From contig CP045477.1 of NCBI GenBank assembly GCA_009392915.1, forward strand, positions 192,001 through 256,000: a stretch of 64,000 bases of DNA. Reading direction: 5' to 3'. Positions 1 through 44,300 of the stretch are shown here, piece by piece; positions within the stretch are counted from its first letter, which is position 1; each line of letters starts with the position of its first letter. The position numbers and the translations under genes are program-made. The notes beneath the pieces are model-generated. The model was given only the letters and a program-made list of their open reading frames with translations, was not told the origin of the DNA and made no database searches. The stretch comes from Candidatus Forterrea multitransposorum CG_2015-17_Forterrea_25_41. GTDB taxonomy: Archaea > Iainarchaeota > Iainarchaeia > Iainarchaeales > CSSED10-239.

Positions 1-142
1 CTTCTTGTTTTTCTTCTGGTAATTTAAGATATTTAGAAACTCCTTTCATTCCATAACCTACCATTAAACAATGTTCAAGGTTTGCTTTTTCTTTAATATG
101 TTTGTTTAATATTTCTATAGTTTTTTCTTTTGTATTGTTCAT
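1..142 (-). CDS. HD-domain phosphohydrolase, N-terminal fragment (gene continues beyond window start)
   Basis: Reverse-complement of 1-142 translates from ATG (142..140) as MNNTKEKTIEILNKHIKEKANLEHCLMVGYGMKGVSKYLKLPEEKQE; H-x-L-x-V followed by G..G is the typical N-terminus of HD/HDIG hydrolases; not in supplied ORF track because truncated. Confidence 0.35.
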   Translation of the reverse strand, partial: MNNTKEKTIEILNKHIKEKANLEHCLMVGYGMKGVSKYLKLPEEKQE

Positions 143-154
143 ATTTTAAAACCT

Positions 155-3100
155 TTAATTTTGATATTTATATCTTACAATAACAATTCCAGAACCACCA
201 TTTCCACCATTTGCTGATGAATTTGTTGCTGATCCGTTTCCACCATTTCCTGTGTTTGCAGCAGCAGAAGATGCATCTGAGTGAGCATCACCACCTTTAG
301 CATAAGTGTTTCCCCAAATGGTCATACCAGGACCTCCATTAGGTACTGTTCCAGGTCCTCCCGCTCCTCCTCCTCCACCAGCTCCAACATTAACAACAGA
401 GGTTGCACCAGGATATCCAAATCCTGTATTAGGATACCCATCATTTGTACTTGGTTGTGTTGCACTTCCACCATTTGCAGGCACTGCACTATAAAGGTTT
501 GCACCTCCACCTGAACCACCTGATGTACCATCTCTGGAAGGATTATCTCTTGATCCTCCACCACCACCACCATATGCAATTAAATTTTTAAATACAGAAT
601 TATTTCCATTATTTCCTGTAAAGTCTTGATTTGTAGAACCTGTTCCTCCTGCTCCTACAGTAACAGTAATATTTCCAGTACTTGAAAGTGTGTAGTCTTC
701 AACATATACAAGACCTCCAGCACCTCCTCCTCCAGGATTTCTTAAAGTATTTGTTCCTGCTTTTCCAGCACCTCCACCACCACCAACAACTAAAACATCT
801 ACTTTTCCCTCTCCTAATGTTGTTACATTAAATGTTCCACTTGATGTAAAAGTATGATATTTATAGTCTCCAGAAGTTGTAACTGTTCCTCCTGTTGCTT
901 CTAAATATCCTTGATTTATTGTTAAGTTTATAGATGCTCCTGCTGTTTGATATTGATCATTTACTATTAAAGTTATCTTATGTTCTCCTGATGATAGATT
1001 AGTTGTTGAAAAGTTACAAGTTGAACTTAAAGTTCCATCTATATTTGAATCCCAATAACATGAATGGCTTCCAGATGGATTTGTAATTGTTGAATTAAAA
1101 GTTAGGTTTTCGCCATAATTATGTGTTGATGAGTTTGAGGGAGTATCAATTGTAACTGATATTGGATTAGGTATGCTACGCATAAATATCCAAGATATAC
1201 CTACAATTCCAATTTCTTCAACTCTTAATAAAGGAATTGTACCATCGGGATCAAATGAAGAAATACTGACTGATGTAAAATCTCCACTTGTTCCTGTTAC
1301 AACTGTTGAATTATTAATTATTAAATTTCCTGAATTTGAAGAATAAGATGCAGCAGTAGATCCTAATCCATAATAGACTCTTAATTGGTTTATGTCACTA
1401 GGTCCATTCCATGTATTCATTGTAAGTAATCCATTATCTGCAGGTCCACTATAGAAAAATGATAAAAATTCAGGTCTTCTTGTATAACTTGCAAAATTAA
1501 CATTTACTCCATCATTATAATGTGTATAATAATCTAGATTATAACCATATGTAGATAGATCTGTAGTTAATATACGGTTACCATTCCATGCAGGATAAGA
1601 TGAGTCATAAGTATTATCTGTTGAAAATGAAGAATACAACATCCAACCTCCTCCATTATCTTCCATATTACAATAAATTTGAGTTGGAACTCCGTCTTTT
1701 AATATCCAATAAACTCCGTTTGTAGCACTTGGATTGTTATTTTTAATATACATTGCAGAAGGTGCTGCTTTTTCTGAAGAACTTCCATCTAAATCTATAA
1801 TTGTTATTGAAATATTTTTATCTATAGTTTGTTCTTGATCAGTAACAGATAATGTTATTGTATGTTCTCCAACTGTTAAACTACTTGTTGAAAAATCACA
1901 ATTACTTGATAAACTTCCATCTATAGATGATACCCAAGAACAACTATAACTTCCGTTTTCATTTTCTATTTGAGAATTAAAATCAATTGCTTCTCCAAAA
2001 CTGAATGTTTGTAAGTTTGTAGGAGAATTAATATTTATTGTAAGTTCTTCAACATATTCATTTTTAGTATTATCATAAATTGCTTTAATTTCATTTAAAT
2101 TTAAACTTCTGCCATATAGTCTATAGTCTGAAATCATTCCTTTAAAATATCTTGTATTTGTAGAATTTATTCCAAATTTAACTCCTCCACCTTGTGTTTC
2201 ATAACTATAAATTTCTTCTAATGTTTTTTCTAAGTTTCCATTAATATAACCTTTTAAAGTTTTTAATGTTTCATCATATGTAACTGTATAATTAATCCAT
2301 TTATTTTCTTCAACAGGATCTGAAAGCTCATAAGTTGAATATCCTCCATCTAAATCTCTCCATCTTATTTCCATTTTTTTATCAACAGGATTAATACTAA
2401 CTCTAAGATTATTTTTTTGAGACCAAAAGAAACTTTCATGTTCTAAACTTTGATTTTCTGTATAATATATCCATCCATTTATTGTAAATGAACTATAATC
2501 ACCTACATTTGAAACATTAATATAATCATTAGCTCCATCTAAATTTAATTTAGAACTACTATTCCAATTTGCAGTTCCAACAATACTTCCATTATTAGAA
2601 TTTCCTGAATAATCGTATACTGTGCTTCCTTCTCCTTCATCTATTTTCCAATATCCAATTATTTGATAATCAATACAGTCAAGTACATTATAGTTATTTG
2701 TTTTAATAGGTTTTACAATTTCTCTCCCTTTATCTGTATTTAATTTTAATATATAATTTTCTTCAGGAGCACATACAACATCTATTTCTTTAGTTTCTTT
2801 TTTTTCAATAGTTATTGGTTCTTCAAAAAATATATTTTTATTTAAATATTCTGTATCAACAGCATCTGATGCAATAAAATAACTAGTTAATACTAAATCT
2901 TGATTAATATTGTTGTTTGAAAGTACAATACTTTGATTTACAACTTCTTCAATTAAGATTTCATCTCCAATTCTTTGTATCTCAATTATAGGAATATTAT
3001 TATTTTTATCCACAACACTAAATCTTAATTCTTCAAGTCCAGGCATAATATCAATGTAGTTATAAAAAAGAATATTATTATTATAATCAATATTATAAAG

Positions 3101-3463
3101 TAGACTTGTTTCTTGTCTATTAATTATAAGTGATCCTATTTGGCTTTGTGTTTTTAGATTTTCAATACTTCTTTTATTTTTAATTTCTTGTCTTAAATAA
3201 AGATTACTTGAGTTATTATCAACTGTAATTGGGTCACTTAAATCTAAATAAACTTCTTTATAGCTTCCAACTTCTGAATCTTTTAAATCTGTTAAAATAT
3301 CATTAATATATGCTAAGTTATCTCTGTTGTTTTTCATTCTTTGTGAATCTTCTAGAGTTCCAAAATAATTCATTGCAAAATAAATAAATATACCTAAAAA
3401 TATAATACTTACAAAAAGAATTGCTATTCCTGAAAATAAAGATGTTACTCCTTTTTGATTCAT
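155..3463 (-). CDS. Large secreted/surface adhesin-like protein: class III (pilin-like) signal peptide, LamG/ConA-like domain, PKD-like repeats, fibrinogen-C-like domain, C-terminal glycine-rich domain
   Basis: 1102-aa ORF; N-term MNQKG|VTSLFSGIAILFV resembles archaeal prepilin signal; aa ~265-460 GxxDxSGNxNNGxxxGxxxW...DGxDDYIxV = Laminin_G_3-like; two SCSW/SCYW...GEHTITLSVTDQEQTI PKD-like repeats; aa ~580-610 GVYWILKDGVPTQIYCNMEDNGGGWMLY resembles fibrinogen C-terminal domain hallmark; last ~200 aa GGGGxG-rich ending IVIVRYKYQN. Confidence 0.75.
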   Translation of the reverse strand: MNQKGVTSLFSGIAILFVSIIFLGIFIYFAMNYFGTLEDSQRMKNNRDNLAYINDILTDLKDSEVGSYKEVYLDLSDPITVDNNSSNLYLRQEIKNKRSIENLKTQSQIGSLIINRQETSLLYNIDYNNNILFYNYIDIMPGLEELRFSVVDKNNNIPIIEIQRIGDEILIEEVVNQSIVLSNNNINQDLVLTSYFIASDAVDTEYLNKNIFFEEPITIEKKETKEIDVVCAPEENYILKLNTDKGREIVKPIKTNNYNVLDCIDYQIIGYWKIDEGEGSTVYDYSGNSNNGSIVGTANWNSSSKLNLDGANDYINVSNVGDYSSFTINGWIYYTENQSLEHESFFWSQKNNLRVSINPVDKKMEIRWRDLDGGYSTYELSDPVEENKWINYTVTYDETLKTLKGYINGNLEKTLEEIYSYETQGGGVKFGINSTNTRYFKGMISDYRLYGRSLNLNEIKAIYDNTKNEYVEELTININSPTNLQTFSFGEAIDFNSQIENENGSYSCSWVSSIDGSLSSNCDFSTSSLTVGEHTITLSVTDQEQTIDKNISITIIDLDGSSSEKAAPSAMYIKNNNPSATNGVYWILKDGVPTQIYCNMEDNGGGWMLYSSFSTDNTYDSSYPAWNGNRILTTDLSTYGYNLDYYTHYNDGVNVNFASYTRRPEFLSFFYSGPADNGLLTMNTWNGPSDINQLRVYYGLGSTAASYSSNSGNLIINNSTVVTGTSGDFTSVSISSFDPDGTIPLLRVEEIGIVGISWIFMRSIPNPISVTIDTPSNSSTHNYGENLTFNSTITNPSGSHSCYWDSNIDGTLSSTCNFSTTNLSSGEHKITLIVNDQYQTAGASINLTINQGYLEATGGTVTTSGDYKYHTFTSSGTFNVTTLGEGKVDVLVVGGGGGAGKAGTNTLRNPGGGGAGGLVYVEDYTLSSTGNITVTVGAGGTGSTNQDFTGNNGNNSVFKNLIAYGGGGGGSRDNPSRDGTSGGSGGGANLYSAVPANGGSATQPSTNDGYPNTGFGYPGATSVVNVGAGGGGGAGGPGTVPNGGPGMTIWGNTYAKGGDAHSDASSAAANTGNGGNGSATNSSANGGNGGSGIVIVRYKYQN

Positions 3464-3993
3464 TATTCTTCACTTTTATTAAAATCTAATAATTCTATTT
3501 CTATAATTATTTTATTTTCATCAAGATTATAATCTTGATAACTAAAAACATAATTTGTTTGTCCTTGATTTAAATTAATTAAATTACAATCTATGTTTAT
3601 TTGGGAATTATTGTTTATTGTTTTTTTAAAATAGGCTCTATTTGATTCTTTACTAACTTCAATATCTTTTATTGTAACTAATTGATCATCTCTAATCTCT
3701 GAGTTAAAGATTATTTCTCCTCTGATTTCATTTTGATTACAATCAATCTCTAAGACTTCTGGATTATATATTGTAATTTCTTTTGCTGAAAATCTAGATT
3801 TTGAAATTTCTTGAAAAGTATTTGAAATTAAATCTATGTTTTCAATCATTTGATCAAAATTATATTTTTCTTGATTTTTTTCAATAGTATCTTGCACCAT
3901 ATAAAGTATGCTTGAAAGAATGGCTATACTTACAAATATATATAGAAAGTATGAAAATAAATTTGCTGCTCCTTTTTCTTTTCTTAAAAACAT
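3463..3993 (-). CDS. Small pilin-like protein (class III signal peptide), hypothetical
   Basis: 176-aa ORF, N-term MFLRKEKG|AANLFSYFLYIFVSIAILSSILYMV (basic residues + Gly then long hydrophobic stretch); stop/start overlaps neighbouring genes, same strand as both flanking pilin-signal genes. Confidence 0.55.
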   Translation of the reverse strand: MFLRKEKGAANLFSYFLYIFVSIAILSSILYMVQDTIEKNQEKYNFDQMIENIDLISNTFQEISKSRFSAKEITIYNPEVLEIDCNQNEIRGEIIFNSEIRDDQLVTIKDIEVSKESNRAYFKKTINNNSQINIDCNLINLNQGQTNYVFSYQDYNLDENKIIIEIELLDFNKSEE

Positions 3994-4005: not shown

Positions 4006-6414
4006 TTATTCTATATTTAAATTTAAATTTTCAGTAATAGTTTGTTCTTGATCTGTCACTGATAATGTTATTGTGTGTTCTCCAACAGACAATGTTGAAA
4101 TATTAATATCACAATTATCTAAAGAATATTGATTATTATATAGTTTTGAAACATCTTCTTGATCTATTGCTTCATCAAAAATTAAAATATCATCCATTTT
4201 ACCATTAAAAAAATGATCATAAGTTCCAACAACTCCATTATAAGCTATAGCAGCACCAATTGCAACTGGCAAGCTATTTGATATTGATCCATAAGTTCCA
4301 ATAGGAACACTAGCATCAAGAATTCCATTAATATAAAAATTTAAATCTTGGTTGTCTTTATAAGACATAATAACATTATACCAATTATTTTGAGCATATA
4401 GAGAACCACAATTACTACAACTTTTATAGTTACTTTGAGCATCATCAATACCAGAATAAATATCCCAATTACTAGAAACATTATTAATCATTAATTGCCA
4501 ACCTGCATAACTTCCTCCGGCACCTCTTCCTCTAGTATTAATTATTCTTTGATATCCAGAACCAGTAGGATTTATCCATGTTGATACAGTAATTTCATCT
4601 AAATTTGAACTAATATTATTATCTAAAGTTGCATAGCTTGAAGTTCCATTAAAACTTAATGCATTATTTTCTCTTCCAAATCTGTCTGTTGTTCTAGTTA
4701 CATTAAATAAAGTTCCGTCAATATTCCCTATATTATCATAAATAGTATCTCCTGTAGTTTCTTCAAATCTATATTCTGCATATGGTTTTTGATATGTTAA
4801 ATTTCCATCAATTGATGATGCCCAAGAACAAGAATAATTTCCTACATTATTTGTAATATTTGTATCTATTTCTATATTATCTCCTAAAGTATATACATTT
4901 GAATCAATATTTATTTCTGCATTTAAAGATGGATTTTCTACAGTTATATTTTTTGTTTCAGTAATAGTTTGTTCTTGATCGGTCACTGATAAAGTTATGG
5001 TGTGTTCTCCAACAGACAATGTTGAAATATTAATATCACAATTATTTGAAGAATATTGATTATTATATAGTTTTGAAACATCAGAACTAGAAATTCCATT
5101 ATTAAAAATAATAATATCATCTAACTTTCCATTAAAAAAATGATTAAAAGTTCCATACACTCCATTATATGCAACTGATGTCCCAATTGCTGTTGGTAAG
5201 CTGTTTGTTATATTTCCATATGGATCTAAATTTACACTTTCATCTAATTGTCCATCAACATAAAAATTAAGATTATTATCTTCATCAAAAGACATAACAA
5301 AATGATACCATTTTCCAAGTGTCAAACTATTTCCACAAGTGTTACAACCAGTAAATGGACTTGTTGAAGAATCAACTCCTGAATAAAGATAAAAATTACT
5401 AGTTGTATCATTAATTAATATTTGCCATCCTTCAACATCTGAAGCTGCAGATCCTCTTGTGTTTATAATTCTCTGATATGTACTAGATCCATTTGATAAA
5501 AACCATCCTGATATTGCAAATCTATTAAGTTCTTGACTTATATTATTATCTAATAAAACATAGCTTGAAGTTCCATTAAAGCTTAAAGCCTTATTTTCTC
5601 TTCCAAATCTATCTGTAGTTCTTGTAATGTTATATCCATTACCATCAATATTACCTATTAAATCATAAATTATATTTCCTGAAGTTTCATTAAAATCCCA
5701 TCTTGCATAAGGTGTTTTACTTGGTATTAAGTTTCCATCAATTGATGATGCCCAAGAACAAGAATAACTTCCAACAGGGTTATTTACTTCTGATGTGAAA
5801 TTAATTGGTTCTGAAAATAAGAAAGAAGTTGCTTCTATTGGATTTGAAATATCTATAGTTGTCACAGTTTCTATTGGATTTAGATTTGGTCTTTCTTTTT
5901 GAAGATTTAATTTTTCAGAAGAATCAATTTCTCTTAAAAAACTTATTTTGTTTCTACTTATTTTTTTAATATAAATAATTGTTTTTGTGTTATTAAGATA
6001 TATTCCTTGTTCTATATCTATTCCATTGATGTCTAAACCAACAATTAATTTTTCAAATTCTCTAAAAGTATAAATTTCTCCTTCTCTAATTAATTGTCCT
6101 TCTTTATAATAATTTCCAGAAATATTATGAAATATTTCTATTTTATCTAAATTAGAATCTGCTTCAAAACTTAAACCATCAAGGTCTATTACAAAAGAGA
6201 CAACAGATCCATTTGAATTTTCTAAAACTTCTTGTATTTTTCCTTGAATTTCTTCAATATACATTCTAGATTCTTCAAATTTTTGTTGTGAATTATTTCT
6301 TTCAATTGCAGGAACAACTCCTTGATAAATAAGTCCTACAACAGCAACAATAATAAATATAACTAAGATATAACTTAAAATTTCAGAAGCTCCTCTCTGA
6401 TTTAGTCTTTTCAT
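4006..6414 (-). CDS. Secreted surface protein with class III signal peptide and two tandem LamG/ConA-like + PKD-like repeat units
   Basis: 802-aa ORF; N-term MKRLNQRG|ASEILSYILVIFIIVAVVGLIY; two ~290-aa internal repeat units (aa 196-487 and 505-797) each with SYSCSWASSIDGNL, RWDFNETSGN / YRFEETTGD LamG signature, and terminal GEHTITLSVTDQEQTIT; repeat units also nearly identical at DNA level. Confidence 0.75.
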   Translation of the reverse strand: MKRLNQRGASEILSYILVIFIIVAVVGLIYQGVVPAIERNNSQQKFEESRMYIEEIQGKIQEVLENSNGSVVSFVIDLDGLSFEADSNLDKIEIFHNISGNYYKEGQLIREGEIYTFREFEKLIVGLDINGIDIEQGIYLNNTKTIIYIKKISRNKISFLREIDSSEKLNLQKERPNLNPIETVTTIDISNPIEATSFLFSEPINFTSEVNNPVGSYSCSWASSIDGNLIPSKTPYARWDFNETSGNIIYDLIGNIDGNGYNITRTTDRFGRENKALSFNGTSSYVLLDNNISQELNRFAISGWFLSNGSSTYQRIINTRGSAASDVEGWQILINDTTSNFYLYSGVDSSTSPFTGCNTCGNSLTLGKWYHFVMSFDEDNNLNFYVDGQLDESVNLDPYGNITNSLPTAIGTSVAYNGVYGTFNHFFNGKLDDIIIFNNGISSSDVSKLYNNQYSSNNCDINISTLSVGEHTITLSVTDQEQTITETKNITVENPSLNAEINIDSNVYTLGDNIEIDTNITNNVGNYSCSWASSIDGNLTYQKPYAEYRFEETTGDTIYDNIGNIDGTLFNVTRTTDRFGRENNALSFNGTSSYATLDNNISSNLDEITVSTWINPTGSGYQRIINTRGRGAGGSYAGWQLMINNVSSNWDIYSGIDDAQSNYKSCSNCGSLYAQNNWYNVIMSYKDNQDLNFYINGILDASVPIGTYGSISNSLPVAIGAAIAYNGVVGTYDHFFNGKMDDILIFDEAIDQEDVSKLYNNQYSLDNCDINISTLSVGEHTITLSVTDQEQTITENLNLNIE

Positions 6415-6513: not shown

Positions 6514-6586
6514 GGTCCGAATAGTGTAGTGGTTAGCATATGGGTCTGTGGATCCCATGACTCGGGTTCGAATCCCGGTTCGGACC
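6514..6586 (+). tRNA. tRNA-His (anticodon GTG) with genomically encoded G-1
   Basis: Cloverleaf folded by hand: G-1 (6514) pairs with discriminator C73 (6586); acceptor GTCCGAA/TTCGGAC; anticodon arm TGGGT-CTGTGGA-TCCCA (31-39 T:T mismatch); T arm TCGGG-TTCGAAT-CCCGG. Confidence 0.8.
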
Positions 6587-6739: not shown

Positions 6740-8188
6740 ATGCACGAAGATCTTTTTAACACCCTAAACCCACATCAAAAAGCATATATTAATTTTGAAA
6801 TTCCAAATGTTAAAAATGGAGAATATATGTTATGTGCTTTCCATTTAAGACCTGGAGGAGATTTAAATATCTTACAAGCAGCTTGTGAAACAGCAGCTGA
6901 ATCTTCAACTGGTACAAATTTTTTAGTAAACACAGAAACTCCTTTTGCAAGAGAGATGAATGCTTTAGTTTATAAATTAGATTTAGAAAAAAGTTTAGTA
7001 TGGATAGCATATCCTTGGAGACTTTTTGATAGAGGAGGAAATGTTCAAAATATCTTAACATACATTGTAGGAAATGTTTTAGGTATGAAAGAAGTTTCTG
7101 CAATTAAACTTTTAGATGTTTGGTTTCCACCAGCTATGCTTGAACAATACGATGGACCTTCCTATACTTTAGATGATATGAGAAAATATTTAGATGTTTA
7201 TGATAGACCAATTTTAGGAACAATTATAAAACCAAAAATGGGTTTAACTTCAGCAGAATATGCAGAAGCATGCTATGATTTCTGGGTTGGTGGAGGAGAT
7301 TTTGTTAAAAATGATGAACCTCAAGCAAACCAAGATTTCTGTCCATATGATAAAATGGTAAAACATGTAAAAGAAGCTATGGATAAAGCTGTAAAAGAAA
7401 CTGGTCATAAAAAAGTACATTCTTTCAATGTTTCAGCTGCAGATTATGATACAATGATTGAAAGATGTGAAATGATTGTTAATGCAGGTTTTGAAAAAGG
7501 ATCTTATGCATTTTTAATAGATGGAACTACTGCAGGTTGGATGGCAGTTCAAACTTTAAGACGTAAATATCCTGATGTTTTCCTTCATTTCCATAGAGCA
7601 GGACATGGAGCATATACAAGACCTGAAAATCCAATTGGTTTTTCTGTTTTAGTATTATCTAAATTTGCAAGACTTGCAGGAGCTTCTGGTATTCATACAG
7701 GAACTGCAGGTGTAGGAAAAATGGCAGGTACTCCAACAGAAGATATTACAGCTGCAACTGGTATTTTAAAATTAGTCTCAGAAGGACATATTTTCCATCA
7801 ATCATGGTCAACTGTTCCTGAAAAAGATTTAGATGTTGTAAAGCTTGCACAAGAGGATGAAGCTCATCATGTTATCTTAGAAGATGATAGTTGGAGAGGT
7901 CTTAAAAAATGTACTCCAATAATCTCTGGTGGTCTAAATCCAACTCTTCTTAAACCATTTATTGATTTAATGGGTGGAGTTGATTTTATAACAACTATGG
8001 GTGCTGGTTGTCATGCTCATCCAAAAGGTACACAAGCAGGCGCTAAGGCTTTAGTTCAAGCATGTGAAGCATACCAGAAAGGAATTTCTATTGAAGAATA
8101 TTCAAAAGATAGACCTGAGCTTGCAGAAGCTATTGAGTTTTTTACAAAGAAAAAGCATGTTGATAACTTAAAGAAGGAGTTTTCTTAA
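6740..8188 (+). CDS. rbcL: Ribulose-1,5-bisphosphate carboxylase/oxygenase large subunit, form II/III (archaeal/DPANN type)
   Basis: 482-aa ORF with catalytic signature residues: GTIIKPKMGL, GGDFVKNDE (carbamylated Lys + metal ligands), HFHRAGHG, ISGGLNP; GGTG RBS upstream. Confidence 0.9.
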   Translation: MHEDLFNTLNPHQKAYINFEIPNVKNGEYMLCAFHLRPGGDLNILQAACETAAESSTGTNFLVNTETPFAREMNALVYKLDLEKSLVWIAYPWRLFDRGGNVQNILTYIVGNVLGMKEVSAIKLLDVWFPPAMLEQYDGPSYTLDDMRKYLDVYDRPILGTIIKPKMGLTSAEYAEACYDFWVGGGDFVKNDEPQANQDFCPYDKMVKHVKEAMDKAVKETGHKKVHSFNVSAADYDTMIERCEMIVNAGFEKGSYAFLIDGTTAGWMAVQTLRRKYPDVFLHFHRAGHGAYTRPENPIGFSVLVLSKFARLAGASGIHTGTAGVGKMAGTPTEDITAATGILKLVSEGHIFHQSWSTVPEKDLDVVKLAQEDEAHHVILEDDSWRGLKKCTPIISGGLNPTLLKPFIDLMGGVDFITTMGAGCHAHPKGTQAGAKALVQACEAYQKGISIEEYSKDRPELAEAIEFFTKKKHVDNLKKEFS

Positions 8189-18972: not shown

Positions 18973-20421
18973 TTGTGTTTTATTATGATTTTCAAACAAT
19001 CAAAGAATCAAATTAAAAGAGATTTCTCTTTTTCTGTAAAAGATGGGATTTTTTGGGTACTAATGAATTCTATAGCTATAATTTTTTTAGTTCCATATTT
19101 AGTTTCTTTAGGTGCAAATTCTTTTCAAATAGGTCTTTTAAATTCATTTCCTTTATTTATAACTTCTTTTTTAGTTTTAATATCTTATAAACTTTTAAAA
19201 ATATTTAAATCTAAAAAACATGCAGTTGTAATTTTTTTAACATTACAAGCTTTAATGTGGATTCCTCTTGCAATGGCTTATTTCTTTTTTCCAAATTCAA
19301 TTACTATTTGGATTATAATTTTAATTTATACAATAATAACTGCTTTAGGAACAATTATTCATCCAATTTACATGGACTGGATAAGAAAACTTTTTCCAAC
19401 AAAACAAATGGGTTCTTATATTGCAAAAAAAAATATAATTTTAGAGTTTGTTTCAATTTTTCCAATTTTTTTAATAGGTTATATTTTAGATGTTATTTTC
19501 AAATCAAATACTTTTATTGGTTATTCAATAATTTTTGTATTTGCAGGAATATTTAGATATTTTTCAACAAGATTTTTAAATAAAATGAGTGAAACAGAAG
19601 ATAAAGAAGCTATTTTAAAACTTGTAAAAGAAAAAGAAAAAATTCCTCTTTTAAAATCTTTTAAAGATGAAGTTATAAAAGATAAGTCTTTTTTAAAGTT
19701 TTTAATTTTTATCATTCTATCATATATTGGTATTCACTTAGCAACTTCTTATGTTTCTTATTTTGTTTTAAACTTTTTAAATTATTCTTCTACTCAATAT
19801 GTTCTATGGAAAATTTCTTTTATTTTAGGAACTGTTTTAAGTTTAAGTTATTGGGGTTATATTTCAGATAAATATAGTCCTGTAAAAGTTTTACAAATAA
19901 GTACTTTATTTATGCCTTTATTTTTAATAATTCCTGCATTCTTTTATTCTAGTTATTCTTTAATGATTTTTTCAATTTTTGTTGGAGGTGTTATTTTTGG
20001 TGCTTTTAATTTAGGGGTTTTAGATTATCTTTTTAAAAATATAAAAAGAGATTTAATAGGTCATAGTTCTTATTTTTTAATAATACAAGCAAGTTCAATT
20101 TTTATTGGAACTCTTCTAGGTTCTGGAATAATTTATTTAGCAACAAAATTTTATTCTTCAGAATTCAAGGCTTTAATATTTTTATTTGTATTTACAATAT
20201 TTTTTAGATACATAGCATTTTTCTATTCTTTAAAGCTTAAAAAATTAGAAAGAAGAGATCTTAGATTTTTTAAATATGTTATTTTTCAAAGACCTGTTCT
20301 TTATGGTTTACTTCAATTTACTCATCTTTCACATGAAGAAAAAAAATTACTACTTGATTTAAAATTAAAATCTGAATTTAAAAAAATTAAATCAAAATTA
20401 TTTAATCAGAAAAAACAGTAG
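18973..20421 (+). CDS. MFS-type transporter
   Basis: 482-aa ORF with ~12 TM helices in two halves separated by a charged loop (NKMSETEDKEAILKLVKEKEK). Confidence 0.5.
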   Translation: MCFIMIFKQSKNQIKRDFSFSVKDGIFWVLMNSIAIIFLVPYLVSLGANSFQIGLLNSFPLFITSFLVLISYKLLKIFKSKKHAVVIFLTLQALMWIPLAMAYFFFPNSITIWIIILIYTIITALGTIIHPIYMDWIRKLFPTKQMGSYIAKKNIILEFVSIFPIFLIGYILDVIFKSNTFIGYSIIFVFAGIFRYFSTRFLNKMSETEDKEAILKLVKEKEKIPLLKSFKDEVIKDKSFLKFLIFIILSYIGIHLATSYVSYFVLNFLNYSSTQYVLWKISFILGTVLSLSYWGYISDKYSPVKVLQISTLFMPLFLIIPAFFYSSYSLMIFSIFVGGVIFGAFNLGVLDYLFKNIKRDLIGHSSYFLIIQASSIFIGTLLGSGIIYLATKFYSSEFKALIFLFVFTIFFRYIAFFYSLKLKKLERRDLRFFKYVIFQRPVLYGLLQFTHLSHEEKKLLLDLKLKSEFKKIKSKLFNQKKQ

Positions 20422-22924
20422 CTGTTTTTCCTCCATCCCATGTAATTCTTGGTCTTATTTTTAGAAGCATTACTTTTTCGGAGTTATCATCAATCATTAT
20501 TGCATATCCTTGTTCTTTTGGCATTTGTGCATAATATTTATCCATAGGTATATTTAGATAACTAGGTCTAATTGATGAAACTGCTTGAATATCTTCTTGT
20601 GCTGTCATTCTCATACTTAAGAAAAGATCACATTGAGAGATTGTTTCAGAATGTAGTTTATTTGGTCTTTGGGTTGCAAGGATTAATGAAAGTCCTGGTT
20701 GCCTTCCAACTCTTATCCATTGCAATAAAACATCTAAAGCCATACTAGGTCTGTCTTGAGGCATAAACATGTGTGCTTCATCTATTACCATCCAGACAAT
20801 AGGCATTTCACTTGTTTTTCTTTTTCCTTCAAGAAGATTTTTTTCTTCTTCTTTTCTATAAAGCATTCTTTCTTCATATAGTCTTTTTCCTAAAAGTCCA
20901 ACTATAAGTTCTTGAACTGATTCCATTCCAATTGCTTGTTTATATGTTGAAACATCAATTGTTGTAATTGTTCCTGGCTTTGCAAATTCTTTCATAGTTG
21001 TTCCTGATTTTGAAAAAAGACCCCATGATTTTGCAATTTTCATTCTATTTATTAAAGAGTCTTTAATTTCTTTTGTTGTTTCTGAATCTGTTAAAGCTAC
21101 TTTAATAATATCATCAATATCATAAAGATTTCCAAGTTTTTGTTTTAAAATATCAATACTTCTTGACAGAAGTCCAGATTCTGGATCTCTCCAAGTTAGT
21201 CTAAAAAGACCAAGCCAGTCTTCTAAATCTACTTGTGAAGATCTTATTGAAAAAGGTGAATCAAAAGGTATTTCTTTTTCTTTATAAAAATCTTGTTTTC
21301 CTGCAGGAATCATATTTCTAATACCAATACCATCTGCCTTTAAATCCCATTTATCTAATAGTTCTTTAGGTACTTCTTTATTTGGATAGTTCATGGTCCA
21401 AAAAATACCTACAGTGTCAATAACAATTACAGAAAGTCTATCTTTAACATCAAAAGGTTGTCTTGCAAATTCTTCCATAACAACAGATAGAGTATAACTG
21501 TTGTGTATTATTATATTATTTGCAATAAAATTATGGTTTTTTAAAACTGTTATGTCATAAACTTCAAATTTTCCTTTTAAATGATTAATTTCTTTAATCT
21601 CATCCCAATAGATATCTGATGTTGCTATTTTTTCAAGTTCTTTATTATTTTCTTTTTTTGCAATAATTAATAATTTTTCTCTTGAAGGTGCATAATTTAT
21701 TGATGATCTAATTGCTTTTGGTGTTTTATAATTAAATTCTACACCAATATTTTTCCATCCGTTTAAAGGTTTAAAATTATTCCAAATTTCTTTAGGAATT
21801 GTATCAATATTTGGATTTTTAATTTTATTTTTATATTTTAATGTTTTTTTTTCTTTTTCTCCAATAAATCCAATTTCTTTAATATATTTTTCTACATCTT
21901 GTTCTAATATTTCAAGTTCATAACTATCTCTTTTTTTAGTTTTCTTTTTTCTAATTTTTGAAAGTATTTCTAGTTTTAATAAGATTCCTTGAATCTGTAG
22001 TATCATTTTTTTAGAAGAAGATGAGTAACTTATTCTACATCTTTTTTCTTTTTCAAAATAAATTGTTCCATCACAACTAAACATTCTATTTAAAAATAAA
22101 GCAAGGTTTTCTTTTTTTTGTTTAAATATAATTTCTGGAATTTCTTTTTGATATGATAATTTATTATACATTCCAATTTGTTTAATATATTCTTTTAAAC
22201 TTCCTTTCTGGTATGGATTTTCTTTTCCTTTTTTCCATATAACTTTGTAATTATATTTTCCTATTTCTTTTAAGTCTAGTTCTTTATCAAATAATTTTAT
22301 TGAAGATCTAAAATCATTTACAATTTTGTCATCACCATTACAAAAAAGTACAACTCTATTTGAAAGATGCCCTTCTGCAAGAAGATATGCAATTAATTTA
22401 ATATTTTCTTTTTTTAATTTATCTTTACCTATATTATTTAATTTTCTAGGTGTTGCAATTCTTGACTTTACTTTAAGATCTTTTGCTTCTTTCCAACCTT
22501 CTAAAGTAAGTAATGGATGTTCTAAAGTTAATTTTATTTCTTTTCCACTTCTAAGTTTAATTTCTAAAAGTTCATTTACTTTTCTTTTAAAAAAGTTTTC
22601 TTTTTTAGCTTTTTCTATTTTTAAATTATCATTAATAGACATTACTTTAAGATTTGTATTTTCTAAATCTTTTATTTCAATTTCTCTTCCATCTTCTAAA
22701 GCTATTAAAGTGTCTCCAGTTACACATTTTCCGCCGCCCCTTTTTCCGCAGATAATCATTACATGTGATCTTGAAAGATCCATTAATACTTTTTTACCTA
22801 AAACAGGGTCATCTCCTCCAGAGACAACTACTTTTCCTAAATATCCAGTTGCTTTTTCTTTGTATTTATCAAGATCGCTTTGTTTTCTTCCAACTACAAT
22901 ATTATCTGTAAAATCTAAACTCAT
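20402..22924 (-). CDS. HerA/FtsK-superfamily ATPase (DUF87/AAA-like) interrupted by an intein in the P-loop
   Basis: 840-aa ORF; Walker A HVMIICGKRGGGK|C...IIIHN|SYT split by a 409-aa insertion beginning Cys and ending His-Asn followed by Ser; Walker B VWMVIDEAHMF; C-terminal ILATQRPNKLHSETISQCDLFLSMRM motif of HerA/FtsK ATPases. Confidence 0.8.
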   Translation of the reverse strand: MSLDFTDNIVVGRKQSDLDKYKEKATGYLGKVVVSGGDDPVLGKKVLMDLSRSHVMIICGKRGGGKCVTGDTLIALEDGREIEIKDLENTNLKVMSINDNLKIEKAKKENFFKRKVNELLEIKLRSGKEIKLTLEHPLLTLEGWKEAKDLKVKSRIATPRKLNNIGKDKLKKENIKLIAYLLAEGHLSNRVVLFCNGDDKIVNDFRSSIKLFDKELDLKEIGKYNYKVIWKKGKENPYQKGSLKEYIKQIGMYNKLSYQKEIPEIIFKQKKENLALFLNRMFSCDGTIYFEKEKRCRISYSSSSKKMILQIQGILLKLEILSKIRKKKTKKRDSYELEILEQDVEKYIKEIGFIGEKEKKTLKYKNKIKNPNIDTIPKEIWNNFKPLNGWKNIGVEFNYKTPKAIRSSINYAPSREKLLIIAKKENNKELEKIATSDIYWDEIKEINHLKGKFEVYDITVLKNHNFIANNIIIHNSYTLSVVMEEFARQPFDVKDRLSVIVIDTVGIFWTMNYPNKEVPKELLDKWDLKADGIGIRNMIPAGKQDFYKEKEIPFDSPFSIRSSQVDLEDWLGLFRLTWRDPESGLLSRSIDILKQKLGNLYDIDDIIKVALTDSETTKEIKDSLINRMKIAKSWGLFSKSGTTMKEFAKPGTITTIDVSTYKQAIGMESVQELIVGLLGKRLYEERMLYRKEEEKNLLEGKRKTSEMPIVWMVIDEAHMFMPQDRPSMALDVLLQWIRVGRQPGLSLILATQRPNKLHSETISQCDLFLSMRMTAQEDIQAVSSIRPSYLNIPMDKYYAQMPKEQGYAIMIDDNSEKVMLLKIRPRITWDGGKTATVFSD
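21500..22726 (-). mobile_element. Intein (Hint domain + LAGLIDADG homing endonuclease) inserted in Walker A of the ATPase
   Basis: Extein/intein junctions GGGK|CVTGDTLIALEDG and NNIIIHN|SYTLS; internal IAYLLAEGHLSNR and LALFLNRMFSCDGTIYF resemble the two LAGLIDADG blocks. Confidence 0.75.
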
Positions 22925-41362: not shown

Positions 41363-44300
41363 ATGGTTAAAGATAAAAATAATTTAGGCTCAAATGAAAA
41401 CAATGAAAATAAACAAAATATTTTTTCAAGATTTTATAATTATCTTGAAGATAAATATTCTTCTTTATCAAACTGGCTTACAGAAAAAGGAATACCATTA
41501 AATAATTTAAATAATTATTTAGAGGAAAAAGGACTTCCTGCTTTTGCAATAGTTGCATCTATTTTATTATTATTAATCTTTATAATTGTTTTCTTAATTA
41601 TCTTTTCTTTTTCCAGTCAATCAACATTAATTTTTTCTGTTAAAGATTATTCTGGACTTTCAATCAATGATGCTTTTTTAAAAATTACAAATAGTTCAGG
41701 TAAGGAAATCTTTTCAGGAACTGTAAATGATACTGATGTTAAAAAATTAAAATTAAAATTAGGAGAATTATATTCTTTTAAATCAACTAAAGATGGATAT
41801 CCTGATTTTTCAAAATCAATAACTATTACTGATAAAGATCAAAAAGTACAAATTACTTTTTCAGAATCAATTGAGTATGGTATATTAAGAATAAAATTAA
41901 TAGATAGAGATAATAAAGGAATAATTACTTCAGGAACTGCGATCGCAAGATATTCAATTAATAATGCTCCTGAGTCTACAGAAAACATTGTAAATATTGC
42001 AAATGAACATTTTATTACTTTAGAAGTTCCAATGAATAAAGATATTGAACTTTTAGTTAGTGCAGATGGTTATGAAGATTTTAAAGAAACAAATTTTAGA
42101 ATAACTTTAGAAAATCAAGAAAAAGTAATTGAAATGGATATTTCTTCTTTATCTTTTGAAGGTAAAAGTCAAGTTACTTTTGTTGTTTTAGATACAGAAC
42201 AAAATCCAATTGATGGTGCTTTAGTAAGCATATATAATCTTGGAGATGAATTATTAGATTCAAAAAATACAATTGATGGAAGAGCTTTATCTTTTATTGA
42301 TAGTGGTTCTACAATATCTTATAAAGTTGAAAAAGAAGGTTATAGAACATTTGTAAGTGATCCTGAAGTTTCTTTTAGAATTACAAAATCTGAAATAACT
42401 TATAATGTTACTTTAGAAGAGGGTGGAAATTTTTTAGATGTGTTTGTAAAATCTGGTTCTAATTTTTTAGCTCTTGGAGATGTTGCAATTACTGTTTATG
42501 ATTTAAATAATAATATTATTAATTCTGGAAATACAGATGATTTAGGAAATTTAAAATTAACTGGTCTTTCTGATAAAGCACCAATTGTTGTAACTGCTTG
42601 TAAAGAAGATTTCCTTTGTGAAAATTTAACAGTAGATCTTTTAGAAAAAAGTTCAGTTGAGTTTACTTTAGAAAGAATAGATGTAACAAATAGTGCTATT
42701 CTGTCTGTTTTTGTTGTTGATGAAAAAAATTTACCGATCTCAAAAGCTTTTATAAAAATCTATCAATTACTTGAAGATGATAAAGAAGTTCCATACAACA
42801 CATCTCTTCAAACTGATCTTACAGGTTCTCTTTCAATACCTCTAAGAGTTGGAGATTCTTTTATAGTTTATTCATTAGTTGGAGAAGTTCAATATTTTGA
42901 AGAAATTACAATTGATGCTTTAAGAGAAAATAAAATAATTTTTGTAATGGATAATGCTTCTAAAATAATTAAATTAGATCTTTATGATGAAAATGGTTTT
43001 AAACTTACTTCAGGTTCTTTACTTGTAAAAACAAAAGATGGAACTGTTCTTTTTGATGGTAATTTATCTGAAACTGATCAAATAAGTTTTATTTCAGAAG
43101 GCTATAAAGATTTATATGCTGAATACACAGATGTTAATGGTAATAAATCTTCAATTAATTTTAATGCTGATGAATCTGAGTCAGATGGATATATAAGACT
43201 TGATTTTAATAAAGAAGTTAATTTAACAGATTATCCTGTAATTGAGTTTTCAGGAATTGTAGATTCTAAAGGAGTTAAATCAAATTTTGTAACAATAGGT
43301 AAAGAATATTATTTAATTTTTGATGTTTTATTCCCAGAAAATACTTATAAAGGACAAGTACATATTAGAGCTGGTGATGATACTCAAGTTGATGTTGAAG
43401 AAATGAGTTATGGTATAACTGGTTTTTCTGCAATGGATATTTATGATTTTAAATATGGTACAACATATAATAGTTCTCCTCTTCCAGGTTTAATGAATAT
43501 TGATCTTTTAAATGAAGGTTCTTCTCAAGTTTTAAATAAATGGCTTGAACTTAAATGGAATAGTGATCTTCCTTTAGGTAATAAACAAATCAAAGTAAAA
43601 ATAAATGTTATAGATGATTCTTATTCAAAATTAACTTTTAAATATAGAACTTTATTTGAAGAAAATAAATTATACTATAGAGATCCAGTTGACTCTTTAT
43701 TAAACCAAAGTTATTCTTCATCTCAAAAAGGTGCTTTATATGCAGATACAAAAGAAGTAAATATTGATGTTTATAATGTTCCTTTAGATTGTGAAGGTTC
43801 TCAATGTTTGTCATATACTTTTATTGATTCAAAAGGAAATGAATTTTCAAAAAATGATTTCTATGCTGTAAGAGATGAAACTTATTTTTTAAAAGTTAGT
43901 CTTTATTCTTTAGATAATAAACAATTAGATCTTTTAGCAGAAACTTCAAAAAGTTTCCCTTTAATTTCATTTGGTTCTTTTTCAGATAATCTTTATCAAA
44001 ATGAAATAATAAATGATAATTCTTTATTTGAAATTTCAAGAGATGGTTTTTTACTTTCTGAAAATTCTTTAAAAAATATTTATCTTTCATTTATCTCAAA
44101 AGATATTGGTGCTGCATATATTGATCTTAAAGCAACAGATGTTATTTTAGGAAATGAAATTTTAAACAATAGATTAAGTTTTAATGTTTATGATAAAAAA
44201 GAAATGAATGTTTTAGTTTCTCCAAGTAATTATGTTGATTATGGATCAAATTTTACTGTTGATGTTTTAGATTCAGTTTCTCTTGAACCTATTACAGATG

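What the first reader, a model, noticed from the sequence alone, without database searches (positions are those of the whole stretch)
1124..1771. Fibrinogen C-terminal-like (FReD) module in an archaeal adhesin
Within the 1102-aa protein, aa ~565-780 contain GVYWILKDGVPTQIYCNMEDNGGGWMLYSS. This closely matches the FReD hallmark (G-x-Y-x-I...x-V-Y-C-D-M...GGGWTV). The domain is Trp/Tyr-rich and lies downstream. FReDs are carbohydrate or acetyl-group binding lectin domains and are rare outside eukaryotes. Together with the LamG/ConA-like domain (2084-2671) and PKD-like repeats, this indicates a glycan-binding adhesin, possibly targeting a host surface.
Basis: partly seen in the sequence, partly recalled or inferred. 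Interest (0 to 1): 0.55.

Follow-up and report, generated by a model that had tools for sequence, protein, structure and literature searches.

The report
Fibrinogen-like cap on a sugar-binding-type module
A large surface protein of a tiny symbiotic-type (DPANN) archaeon carries a roughly 205-residue module that resembles animal fibrinogen-type lectin domains only in its first 50 or so residues; the rest looks like a bacterial carbohydrate-binding beta-sandwich, the module's relatives sit mostly in phage tail-fibre genes, and a sister strain has a different lectin-like module in its place.

Summary
The motif is real. GVYWILKDGVPTQIYCNMEDNGGGWMLYSS is aa 583-612 (nt 1628-1717, minus strand) of the 1102-aa ORF 155..3463(-). 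It passes NCBIfam NF040941, 'fibrinogen-like YCDxxxxGGGW domain' (50.3 bits, cutoff 30, E 1.7e-13). It also aligns to intelectin, tenascin and angiopoietin FReDs.

The homology stops after about 50 residues.
- Pfam Fibrinogen_C scores 17 bits (cutoff 22) and covers only profile positions 12-47 of 221.
- The domain has a single Cys, so FReD disulfides cannot form.

It is therefore a FReD-like cap on a CBM-like sandwich, not a complete FReD.

Full-length relatives (29-54% identity) come only from metagenomes. They are usually C-terminal and often fused or adjacent to Laminin_G_3 and Gly_rich_2 domains, and those with readable context sit in phage tail-fibre regions.

The host is a DPANN archaeon. 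The gene is the last of three coupled genes with pilin-like N-termini. A sister strain's ortholog keeps the flanks (96% and 86% identity) but has PKD-LamG-PKD in place of exactly this domain.

I read it as a swappable ligand-binding module of a hypervariable adhesin; the binding function is inferred. It is a new member of a known kind and of modest interest.

The parts
155..3463 (-). 1102-aa multidomain surface protein (NCBI NCP72282.1, 'LamG domain-containing protein [archaeon]')
   Evidence: ORF list. Exact-sequence look-up finds it on 41 contigs, the longest 839 kb.
3281..3463 (-). Pilin-like N-terminus, aa 1-61: MNQKG|VTSLF..., about 25 hydrophobic residues, then an amphipathic helix. Putative class III signal peptide plus alpha1 helix.
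   Evidence: Sequence reading. AF2 predicts one continuous helix over residues 3-61 followed by beta domains (pLDDT 77, 5-sequence alignment). No significant pilin HMM hit, so this is inferred.
2669..3280 (-). Lineage-specific beta-rich N-terminal region, aa 62-265
   Evidence: AF2 strands 68-254. Homologs found only in close DPANN relatives.
2084..2539 (-). Laminin_G_3 (ConA-like lectin/glucanase) domain, aa 309-460
   Evidence: Pfam PF13385, E 3.2e-17, 63.5 bits.
1793..2038 (-). Ig/PKD-like repeat 1, aa 476-557
   Evidence: Weak K319L-like_PKD hit. Internal repeat with aa 767-851 and with repeats in the 802-aa neighbour. It is the left breakpoint of the module swap.
1166..1792 (-). The roughly 205-aa domain in question, aa 558-766: FReD-like cap plus CBM-like beta-sandwich
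1628..1756 (-). FReD/intelectin/COLFI-like N-terminal element, aa 570-612, including YCNM...GGGW
   Evidence: NF040941 at 50.3 bits over aa 570-609. PDB alignments. Pfam Fibrinogen_C positions 12-47.
911..1165 (-). Ig/PKD-like repeat 2, aa 767-851
   Evidence: Pfam PKD E 0.0015, sub-threshold. It is the right breakpoint of the module swap.
167..847 (-). Gly_rich_2 C-terminal domain, aa 873-1099
   Evidence: Pfam PF21722, E 2.6e-23. PHROG 2295 and PHROG 863 'tail fiber assembly'.
3463..3993 (-). 176-aa upstream gene with a pilin-like N-terminus (MFLRKEKG|AANLF...). Its stop overlaps the start of the 1102-aa gene (TAATG).
   Evidence: The gene is conserved in the same position in L026 and L028.
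4006..6414 (-). 802-aa first gene of the cassette: pilin-like N-terminus (MKRLNQRG|ASEIL...), two Laminin_G_3 domains and PKD-like repeats
   Evidence: Pfam Laminin_G_3 E 1.3e-36. DUF7289 N-terminal hit at 23 bits, below its cutoff. NCBIfam TafC-like partial hit.

Best explanation
Amino acids 558-766 form a self-contained module of about 205 residues. It has a roughly 50-residue N-terminal cap homologous to the first subdomain of fibrinogen-related, intelectin and procollagen-C-propeptide domains: a helix, a beta-hairpin carrying G-x-Y-W-I and Y-C-N-M, then the GGGW strand. This cap is joined to an all-beta jelly-roll body of the kind seen in bacterial carbohydrate-binding modules.

The module belongs to the prokaryotic and viral 'YCDxxxxGGGW' family (NCBIfam NF040941), not to the FReD family proper. 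Its full-length relatives are mostly C-terminal tips of phage tail-fibre-type proteins, where they are shuffled with Laminin_G_3 and Gly_rich_2 domains.

In this DPANN archaeon the module is strung between two Ig-like spacers in a protein with a type-IV-pilin-like N-terminus. That protein is the last of three translationally coupled pilin-like genes in a strain-variable locus.

Proposed mechanism (inferred, not shown): the protein is exported and anchored or assembled through its pilin-like helix. It then presents several interchangeable lectin-like modules (LamG, this domain, Gly_rich_2) that bind surface glycans of a partner cell or substrate. Recombination at the near-identical Ig-like repeats swaps modules and so changes binding specificity between strains.
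For: Shown:
- The cap is homologous to FReD-type N-termini.
- Homology is limited to the cap.
- The AF2 model is confident: pLDDT 96, pTM 0.92, two short helices and 14 strands.
- Foldseek gives CBM35 and CBM29 at E 2e-4 to 1e-2, procollagen C-propeptide at 1.8e-3 and intelectin at 5e-3 with TM 0.29.
- In giant proteins the cap recurs every 200-255 aa, so it marks the start of domains of about 200 aa.
- Thirty-five of the 172 fetched proteins match the full-length profile (>150 of 206 positions), mostly at the C-terminus.
- Five of nine such proteins scanned also carry Laminin_G_3 and/or Gly_rich_2.
- Phage contexts: L001-L003 have the order GGGW protein, LamG_3 protein, Gly_rich_2 protein, with Mtd_N, SLT and collagen genes nearby. 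L008 is an IMG/VR contig with a 50%-identical full-length homolog among genes resembling virion structural proteins. L068 is a T4-like phage where the homolog follows four LamG_3x2 genes. In L069 it lies just upstream of an endolysin.
- The organism is a DPANN archaeon and the contig is 0.66-0.84 Mb.
- The sister-strain ortholog is 96.4% identical over aa 1-557 and 85.8% over aa 759-1102, but has PKD-LamG_3-PKD in place of aa 558-758.
- A more distant genome keeps the three-gene cassette between RuBisCO and the HD gene but with other modules.
- AF2 predicts an N-terminal helix over residues 3-61 followed by beta domains.
- A prepilin peptidase gene (PF01478) lies about 8 kb away.
- LamG proteins linked to type IV pili loci and genomic islands have been reported as expanded in DPANN (PMC5498576).
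Against: - No binding or localisation data exist, so ligand and function are inferred from fold class and context.
- Pilin HMMs are not significant for this protein. The N-terminal model rests on 5 sequences (pTM 0.53).
- No pilus-assembly ATPase or platform gene was looked for in the vicinity.
- The sister-strain ortholog has an in-frame TAA at codon 168, so the gene may be dispensable or decaying there.
- In phage fibres such C-terminal domains can serve trimerisation as well as binding.
Confidence: 0.62

Rival explanations
1. It is a complete but divergent fibrinogen-related lectin domain, with a FReD-type Ca2+ site and acetyl/carbohydrate pocket in its C-terminal part.
For: The hallmark N-terminal motif is present and significant. 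Domain length (about 205 aa) is similar to a FReD (about 220 aa). The C-terminal 'GISWIFMR' loosely recalls the FReD C-terminal strand. One relative (P0028) passes the Pfam Fibrinogen_C cutoff at 26.5 bits, although only over positions 9-46.
Against: Pfam coverage is limited to positions 12-47 of 221. Every PDB FReD alignment ends at or before profile position 66. There is one Cys only. The confident model is nearly all-beta and finds CBMs rather than FReDs; the intelectin Foldseek hit has TM 0.29 and probability 0.75.
Confidence: 0.07
2. The module is mainly a folding or oligomerisation (trimerisation/knob) domain, like the procollagen C-propeptide (COLFI) or C-terminal phage-fibre knobs, rather than a ligand-binding lectin.
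Against: In the window protein the domain is internal, between Ig-like spacers, in a protein with a pilin-like (not trimeric fibre) N-terminus. In the sister strain it is exchanged for a LamG lectin-like module, which argues for an equivalent binding role. TM-scores to COLFI are low (0.33-0.35).
Confidence: 0.15
3. The gene is a phage or provirus tail-fibre gene sitting in the archaeal contig, not a cellular adhesin.
For: All three recognisable modules are typical of phage tail-fibre loci. An integrase (Phage_integr_3) lies a few kb away in related genomes.
Against: The three-gene cassette is syntenic between RuBisCO and the HD-domain gene in three related genomes. No virion or packaging genes lie nearby. 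All three proteins have pilin-like hydrophobic N-termini. GC3 of the domain segment (0.11) is the same as housekeeping genes (0.08-0.12).
Confidence: 0.05
4. The motif is a chance resemblance in a low-complexity, Asn/Ser/Thr-rich protein.
For: The proteome is AT-rich (window GC 25%) and the protein is 30% N+S+T.
Against: The curated HMM gives E 1.7e-13, above its cutoff. Thirty-three homologous domains conserve it. The motif is folded with high confidence as helix plus three strands.
Confidence: 0.01

Closest known systems
NCBIfam NF040941 GGGWT_bact, 'fibrinogen-like YCDxxxxGGGW domain-containing protein'
   Same: The window protein passes the curated cutoff (50.3 against 30 bits) over aa 570-609. 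This is the family it belongs to by sequence.
   Different: The model describes only 46 residues and says nothing about the following roughly 150 aa. The window domain belongs to a sub-group (GGGWMLYSSF...GISWIxVR) seen here only in metagenomes, one IMG/VR contig and this archaeon. Here it sits inside a pilin-like archaeal protein.
Animal fibrinogen-related domains (Pfam PF00147: ficolins, tenascins, angiopoietins, FIBCD1) and intelectins (X-type lectins, e.g. 4wmq)
   Same: They share the N-terminal element with the same order of helix, hairpin and GGGW strand. Profile E-values run from 3e-7 to 1e-5.
   Different: There is no match beyond about 55 residues and no disulfides. The body is an all-beta jelly-roll rather than the B and P subdomains. 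No alignable Ca2+/ligand site exists.
Fibrillar procollagen C-propeptide (COLFI, PF01410; PDB 4ae2, 5k31)
   Different: Similarity is weak (TM about 0.35). The window sequence itself gives no COLFI HMM hit. COLFI has a stalk, inter-chain disulfides and a trimerisation role, none of which is evident here.
Jelly-roll carbohydrate-binding modules (CBM29, CBM22, CBM35, CBM16, CBM61, CBM4; YxiM N-domain, Ape1 CBM)
   Different: There is no sequence similarity (4-15% identity). CBMs lack the FReD-like cap. Binding-site residues were not compared.
Phage tail-fibre / receptor-binding module sets (Laminin_G_3 + Gly_rich_2 + GGGW-type domain) in uncultured T4-like and other tailed phages and in cyanomyoviruses
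   Same: The same three modules occur, either fused or in adjacent genes. Full-length homologs of the domain reach 29-54% identity.
   Different: The window protein is cellular: syntenic chromosomal locus, pilin-like N-terminus and host codon usage. Cultured phages in INPHARED have only the cap element, not the full-length sub-group.
LamG/PKD surface proteins linked to type IV pili loci in DPANN archaea (e.g. 'Ca. Mancarchaeum' Mia14; PMC5498576)
   Same: It is a DPANN archaeon with LamG jelly-roll and PKD-type domains, a strain-variable island location and a presumed role in host interaction.
   Different: The passages of that paper retrieved (a term search, not a full read) do not mention a YCDM-GGGW module or the Gly_rich_2 combination. 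The domain-level swap between strains is shown here.

Membership tests
Fibrinogen-related domain (Pfam PF00147 Fibrinogen_C) | Profile match above the gathering threshold over most of the 221-position model | tested here: not met
   17.1 bits against a cutoff of 22, covering positions 12-47 of 221 only. The same N-terminal-only coverage is seen in the 18 of 33 relatives that hit it.
Fibrinogen-related domain (Pfam PF00147 Fibrinogen_C) | N-terminal A-subdomain motif: helix, G-x-Y-x-I, V-Y-C-D-M, GGGWT | tested here: met
   Alignments to intelectin-1, XEEL, tenascin-R/C and angiopoietin. AF2 gives helix 13-19 and strands 26-32, 35-42 and 50-56.
Fibrinogen-related domain (Pfam PF00147 Fibrinogen_C) | Conserved intradomain disulfides (A-subdomain pair and P-subdomain pair; feature taken from established FReD structures, my own knowledge) | tested here: not met
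   Cys598 is the only Cys in aa 558-766. The position that aligns with the first FReD Cys is the conserved Ser-Ala (S569-A570).
Fibrinogen-related domain (Pfam PF00147 Fibrinogen_C) | B and P subdomain fold | tested here: not met
Fibrinogen-related domain (Pfam PF00147 Fibrinogen_C) | Ca2+ site and acetyl/carbohydrate pocket in the P subdomain | tested here: inconclusive
   No region aligns to the P subdomain by sequence.
NCBIfam NF040941 GGGWT_bact | HMM score at or above the curated cutoff (30 bits) | tested here: met
   50.3 bits, E 1.7e-13, aa 570-609, profile positions 2-45 of 46.
Intelectin / X-type lectin | Homology over the whole roughly 280-aa lectin domain, including the Ca2+-dependent exocyclic-diol site | tested here: not met
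   phmmer and profile matches cover only chain residues 25-79. Foldseek gives TM 0.25-0.29.
COLFI (PF01410, fibrillar collagen C-propeptide) | Profile match above the cutoff (26.2 bits) | tested here: not met
   The window domain gives no hit. Seven of 33 relatives give sub-threshold N-terminal hits, with best E 0.001.
Jelly-roll carbohydrate-binding module (fold class) | Beta-sandwich/jelly-roll topology superposable on known CBMs | tested here: met
Jelly-roll carbohydrate-binding module (fold class) | Demonstrable carbohydrate-binding site or activity | not testable with these tools
   Needs coordinates with a ligand, or biochemistry.
Archaeal type IV pilin-like protein (class III signal peptide) | Short basic n-region, [KR][GA] cleavage motif, then about 20 hydrophobic residues | tested here: met
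   MNQKG|VTSLFSGIAILFVSIIFLGIFIYFA. The two upstream genes have equivalent motifs (KG|AANLF, RG|ASEIL). This rests on sequence reading only.
Archaeal type IV pilin-like protein (class III signal peptide) | Significant match to a pilin N-terminal HMM | tested here: not met
   No significant Pfam or NCBIfam hit for the 1102-aa protein. The 802-aa neighbour gives DUF7289 at 23.2 bits (cutoff 27) and UpsA at E 0.03.
Archaeal type IV pilin-like protein (class III signal peptide) | Long N-terminal alpha-helix packed against a beta domain | tested here: met
   AF2 gives helix 3-61 followed by strands 68-164. Mean pLDDT is 77, and 83-91 for residues 41-160. The alignment has 5 sequences, so confidence is moderate.
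Archaeal type IV pilin-like protein (class III signal peptide) | Prepilin peptidase and assembly machinery in the genome | tested here: inconclusive
   A Peptidase_A24 gene lies about 8 kb from the gene on the same contig (L023 20981-21832). ATPase and platform genes were not searched for.

The most novel reading that the evidence does not exclude
The roughly 50-residue FReD 'A-subdomain' is an ancient, portable cap that has been joined to different bodies. The window domain and its phage relatives would then be an undescribed cap-plus-jelly-roll lectin family that moves between phage receptor-binding proteins and the host-attachment pilins of DPANN archaea. It would also be a prokaryotic/viral relative of the element later built into animal FReD, intelectin and procollagen C-propeptide domains.
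Probability: 0.25. Interest if true: 0.55.

Novelty: new member of a known kind. Interest (0 to 1): 0.3.

Why it matters
The result corrects an attractive over-reading. There is no evidence here for a complete animal-type fibrinogen lectin domain in archaea. What is present is the short cap that NCBI already models in bacteria.

Three points are still useful:
- The cap sits on a CBM-like jelly-roll that no Pfam, NCBIfam or PHROG model covers.
- The same module set (LamG_3, this domain, Gly_rich_2) is shared between phage tail-fibre loci and a pilin-like surface protein of a DPANN archaeon.
- Two near-identical strains differ by a clean swap of exactly this domain at Ig-like repeat boundaries.

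The third point gives a concrete, testable example of how ultrasmall symbiotic-type archaea may diversify their attachment specificity. It also names a defined 205-aa construct for binding and structural work.

Tried and rejected
1. Chance match: rejected on HMM E-values and family conservation.
2. Complete FReD: rejected on profile coverage, Cys count and fold searches.
3. Recent horizontal acquisition, suggested by the raised GC of window 1-2000 (0.335 against about 0.25): GC3 of the domain is 0.11, like housekeeping genes, so the excess is due to amino-acid composition (Gly/Ser/Thr codon positions 1 and 2).
4. Prophage origin: rejected on synteny and the lack of virion genes.
5. Survey of GTDB species genomes. 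The A3 alignment was too divergent to seed the scan. With A2, only 4 loci were found, all cap-only: Ideonella, two Myxococcales and one Aenigmatarchaeota (L007, which does have the FReD-type Cys in the helix and GGGWTL). The patterns were narrow, so this is not a full census. The window's own genome was not found by that pattern scan of the representative set.
6. The afdb50 fold library was unavailable, so BFVD was used instead. Its best hits were cyanophage proteins annotated as COLFI- or fibrinogen-like, at low TM.
7. Cultured phages: tblastn found only cap-level matches in T4-like cyanophages, all annotated as hypothetical.
8. The literature searches I ran for prokaryotic FReDs, a COLFI-FReD relationship and phage fibrinogen-like fibres gave nothing specific.
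9. Pilin HMM confirmation failed. Support for the pilin reading comes only from the motif pattern, the AF2 helix and the nearby peptidase gene.
10. Model coordinates could not be read, so no residue-level analysis of metal or ligand sites and no explicit superposition of the cap on a FReD was possible.
Full report
**1. What is in the sequence**

The finding lies inside one long ORF, window 155..3463 on the minus strand, encoding 1102 aa. The quoted peptide GVYWILKDGVPTQIYCNMEDNGGGWMLYSS is aa 583-612, nt 1628-1717. It is the only such motif in the six-frame translation of the window.

Domain scans give this architecture:
- a hydrophobic N-terminus
- a lineage-specific beta-rich region
- Laminin_G_3, aa 309-460 (E 3e-17)
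- an Ig/PKD-like repeat, about aa 476-557 (sub-threshold)
- the domain in question, about aa 558-766
- a second Ig/PKD-like repeat, about aa 767-851
- Gly_rich_2 (PF21722), aa 873-1099 (E 3e-23)

**2. Is the FReD resemblance real?**

It is real for the first 50 or so residues.
- NCBIfam NF040941 ('GGGWT_bact', fibrinogen-like YCDxxxxGGGW domain) matches aa 570-609 at 50.3 bits (cutoff 30, E 1.7e-13).
- Against PDB sequences the single domain finds intelectin-1 (E 7e-5), XEEL, angiopoietin, tenascin, ficolin and fibrinogen beta.
- A 33-member family profile raises this to 2.7e-7 for intelectin and 1.8e-6 for tenascin-R.

Every one of these alignments ends at or before profile position 66.
- Pfam Fibrinogen_C gives only 17 bits (cutoff 22) over model positions 12-47 of 221.
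- The same N-terminal-only pattern holds in the 18 of 33 relatives that hit Fibrinogen_C and the 7 that hit COLFI.
- The domain contains a single cysteine, C598 in YCNM. The position where FReDs have the partner Cys is a conserved Ser-Ala. The characteristic disulfides therefore cannot exist.

**3. Fold**

I collected homologs, trimmed them to the domain, and built alignment A3: 33 sequences at 29-54% identity to the query.
- AlphaFold2 on A3 gives a very confident model: pLDDT 96.0, pTM 0.92.
- Its secondary structure is helix 13-19, strands 26-32, 35-42 and 50-56 (the FReD-like cap), then one short helix and eleven more strands.
- Foldseek against the PDB agrees: Xyn30D/CBM35 at E 2e-4, CBM35 and CBM29 with TM(target) about 0.5, procollagen III C-propeptide at E 1.8e-3, and intelectin-1 only at E 5e-3 with TM 0.29.
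- BFVD gives cyanophage proteins annotated as 'Fibrillar collagen NC1 domain' or 'Fibrinogen C-terminal domain' and several tail-fibre proteins, all at low TM.

The body of the domain is thus better described as a CBM-like beta-sandwich.

**4. The family**

An exhaustive profile search of 1.84 billion representatives found 4170 clusters at E<=1e-3, 402 at <=1e-10 and 31 at <=1e-30. Most match only profile positions 3 to about 60.

In giant proteins these matches recur every 200-255 aa, up to 15 times. The cap therefore marks the start of domains of about 200 aa whose bodies have diverged beyond sequence recognition, or differ outright.

Thirty-five of the 172 fetched proteins (one of them, P0027, a fragment of the window protein itself) match the full length, mostly at the extreme C-terminus. 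Of nine such proteins scanned, five also contain Laminin_G_3 and/or Gly_rich_2, in various orders.

Where genomic context could be read it was phage-like:
- L001-L003 show the order GGGW-type protein, Laminin_G_3 protein, Gly_rich_2 protein, next to Mtd_N, SLT, collagen-like, ThyX and HNH genes.
- IMG/VR contig L008 carries a 50%-identical full-length homolog among small genes that hit 'virion structural protein' PHROGs.
- L068 is a T4-like phage (gp32, gp59, baseplate, tail tube) where the homolog follows four roughly 850-aa LamG_3x2 genes.
- In L069 the homolog lies just upstream of an Amidase_2 endolysin in a temperate-phage-like contig.

Other collections hold little:
- The 50,697 cultured phage genomes contain only the cap, in T4-like cyanomyoviruses, annotated as hypothetical and located in the structural region.
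- A pattern scan of GTDB species representatives found only four cap-level loci. One is an Aenigmatarchaeota surface-type protein that does retain the FReD-like Cys and GGGWTL.
- None of the listed relatives (E<=1e-8) carried an informative source name (only 'hypothetical protein'), and none was from NCBI.

**5. The organism and the locus**

The exact protein occurs on 41 contigs up to 839 kb. NCBI names it 'LamG domain-containing protein [archaeon]'. The neighbouring RuBisCO clusters with 'uncultured Nanobdellati archaeon' and 'Candidatus ainarchaeum sp.'. The host is therefore a DPANN archaeon with about 25% GC.

The gene is the last of three co-oriented genes:
- 802 aa at 4006..6414
- 176 aa at 3463..3993
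- 1102 aa at 155..3463, with a TAATG stop/start overlap to the 176-aa gene

All three begin with a short basic stretch, [KR]G, and about 20-25 hydrophobic residues.

Evidence on the pilin reading is mixed. Pilin HMMs are not significant. AF2 of aa 1-270 (5-sequence alignment, pLDDT 77) predicts one continuous helix over residues 3-61 followed by beta domains, which is the type IV pilin 'lollipop' layout. A Peptidase_A24 prepilin-peptidase gene lies about 8 kb away. I treat the pilin-like nature as likely but inferred.

GC3 of the domain segment (0.11) equals that of housekeeping genes (0.08-0.12). There is thus no sign of recent transfer, and the raised GC at the left end of the window reflects Gly/Ser/Thr-rich composition.

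**6. Module swap**

The same cassette sits between the RuBisCO gene and an HD-domain gene in related genomes.

In a sister strain (L026/L027):
- The ortholog is 96.4% identical over aa 1-557 and 85.8% over aa 759-1102.
- The interval corresponding to aa 558-758, which is exactly the domain under study, is replaced by about 290 aa of PKD-Laminin_G_3-PKD.
- The breakpoints fall in the Ig-like repeats. These share near-identical peptides (...VGEHTITLSVTDQ...) within and between the 1102-aa and 802-aa proteins, making them obvious recombination substrates.
- That ortholog also has an in-frame TAA at codon 168 (GAA to TAA), seen on 8 contigs.

In a more distant genome (L028), gene 1 carries CHB_HEX_C_1, Fn3_assoc and DUF285 modules, and gene 3 is reduced to the N-terminal region plus two Ig repeats.

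The locus is thus a hypervariable display scaffold, and the FReD-capped domain is one interchangeable cartridge. A lectin-like LamG module stands in its place in the sister strain, and that substitution is the best available, though indirect, evidence that the domain has a ligand-binding role.

**7. Mechanism: what is shown and what is inferred**

Shown:
- cap homology
- a non-FReD body
- family distribution and phage tail-fibre contexts
- archaeal chromosomal synteny
- the domain swap

Inferred:
- export and anchoring or assembly through a pilin-like helix
- presentation of several lectin-like modules on Ig-like spacers
- binding to surface glycans of a partner cell or substrate
- specificity change by cassette recombination

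Published work on another DPANN archaeon notes expanded LamG jelly-roll proteins linked to type IV pili loci and genomic islands, with a presumed role in host interaction (PMC5498576). The overall theme is therefore not new.

The main rival for the domain's role is a COLFI-like or knob-like oligomerisation function. I cannot exclude it.

**8. Comparison with the known, and verdict**

By curated threshold the domain is a member of the NF040941 'YCDxxxxGGGW' family. It is not a member of the FReD (PF00147), intelectin or COLFI families, because defining features were tested and not met. Its body belongs to the jelly-roll CBM fold class at fold level only.

It is a new member of a known, poorly characterised kind. 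Its sub-group is so far seen only in uncultured phages, environmental contigs and this archaeon. Interest is modest (0.3), coming from the clean strain-level module swap and the module set shared with phage tail fibres, not from the fibrinogen resemblance.

Noticed in passing
window 41363-49378 (+), 51298-58269 (+), 58297-63900 (+): Three giant ORFs (2671, 2323 and 1867 aa) with CarboxypepD_reg, SpaA, Big_1 and bMG3-type Ig-like repeats. They are probably further giant surface proteins of this small-genome archaeon.
   Followed up: partly
window 20402-22924 (-): An 840-aa ORF containing an intein (Intein_splicing plus a LAGLIDADG_3 homing endonuclease). The host protein was not identified.
   Followed up: no
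window 6740-8188 (+); L026, L028: A form II/III RuBisCO gene lies divergently next to the adhesin cassette, with a tRNA at 6515-6586 between them. The RuBisCO-cassette-HD gene order is conserved in three related genomes.
   Followed up: partly
L026:8001-11567 (sister strain, JGI 3300042275): The ortholog of the 1102-aa gene has an in-frame TAA at codon 168 (GAA in the window strain), seen on 8 contigs. This could be pseudogenisation, phase variation or read-through.
   Followed up: partly
window 1793-2038, 911-1165 and within 4006-6414 (-): Near-identical peptide stretches (S/T-L-S/T-VGEHTITLSVTDQEQTI) recur in the Ig/PKD-like repeats of both the 1102-aa and 802-aa proteins. They are likely substrates for the recombination that swaps modules.
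   Followed up: partly
L007:45-959 (Candidatus Aenigmatarchaeota MAG JACQIE010000047.1): Another DPANN archaeon encodes a surface-type protein with a more FReD-like cap (RRCKEY...YCDMTTDGGGWTL, including the helix Cys) and a different C-terminal body ending in MWVR. It belongs to a second archaeal sub-group of the family.
   Followed up: no
L001, L002, L003 (phage-like contigs): A separate sub-group of 270-370-aa proteins (P0007-P0025) has the cap, WGFGWNE and CCQ motifs, and a C-terminal RVE-x-Y-x-R. It sits directly upstream of Laminin_G_3 and Gly_rich_2 genes. L003 also has an Mtd_N gene, typical of DGR targets.
   Followed up: no
P0048, P0050, P0055, P0071, P0073, P0080, P0108 (family members): Some full-length relatives have lost the YCDM Cys and the GGG run but keep GW-x-LY-S/A-SF and the body. 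The 'hallmark' residues are therefore not essential for the fold.
   Followed up: no
L023 20981-21832 (about 8 kb beyond the window's left edge on the same contig): A Peptidase_A24 (prepilin peptidase) gene lies next to SRP54 and near the cassette.
   Followed up: no
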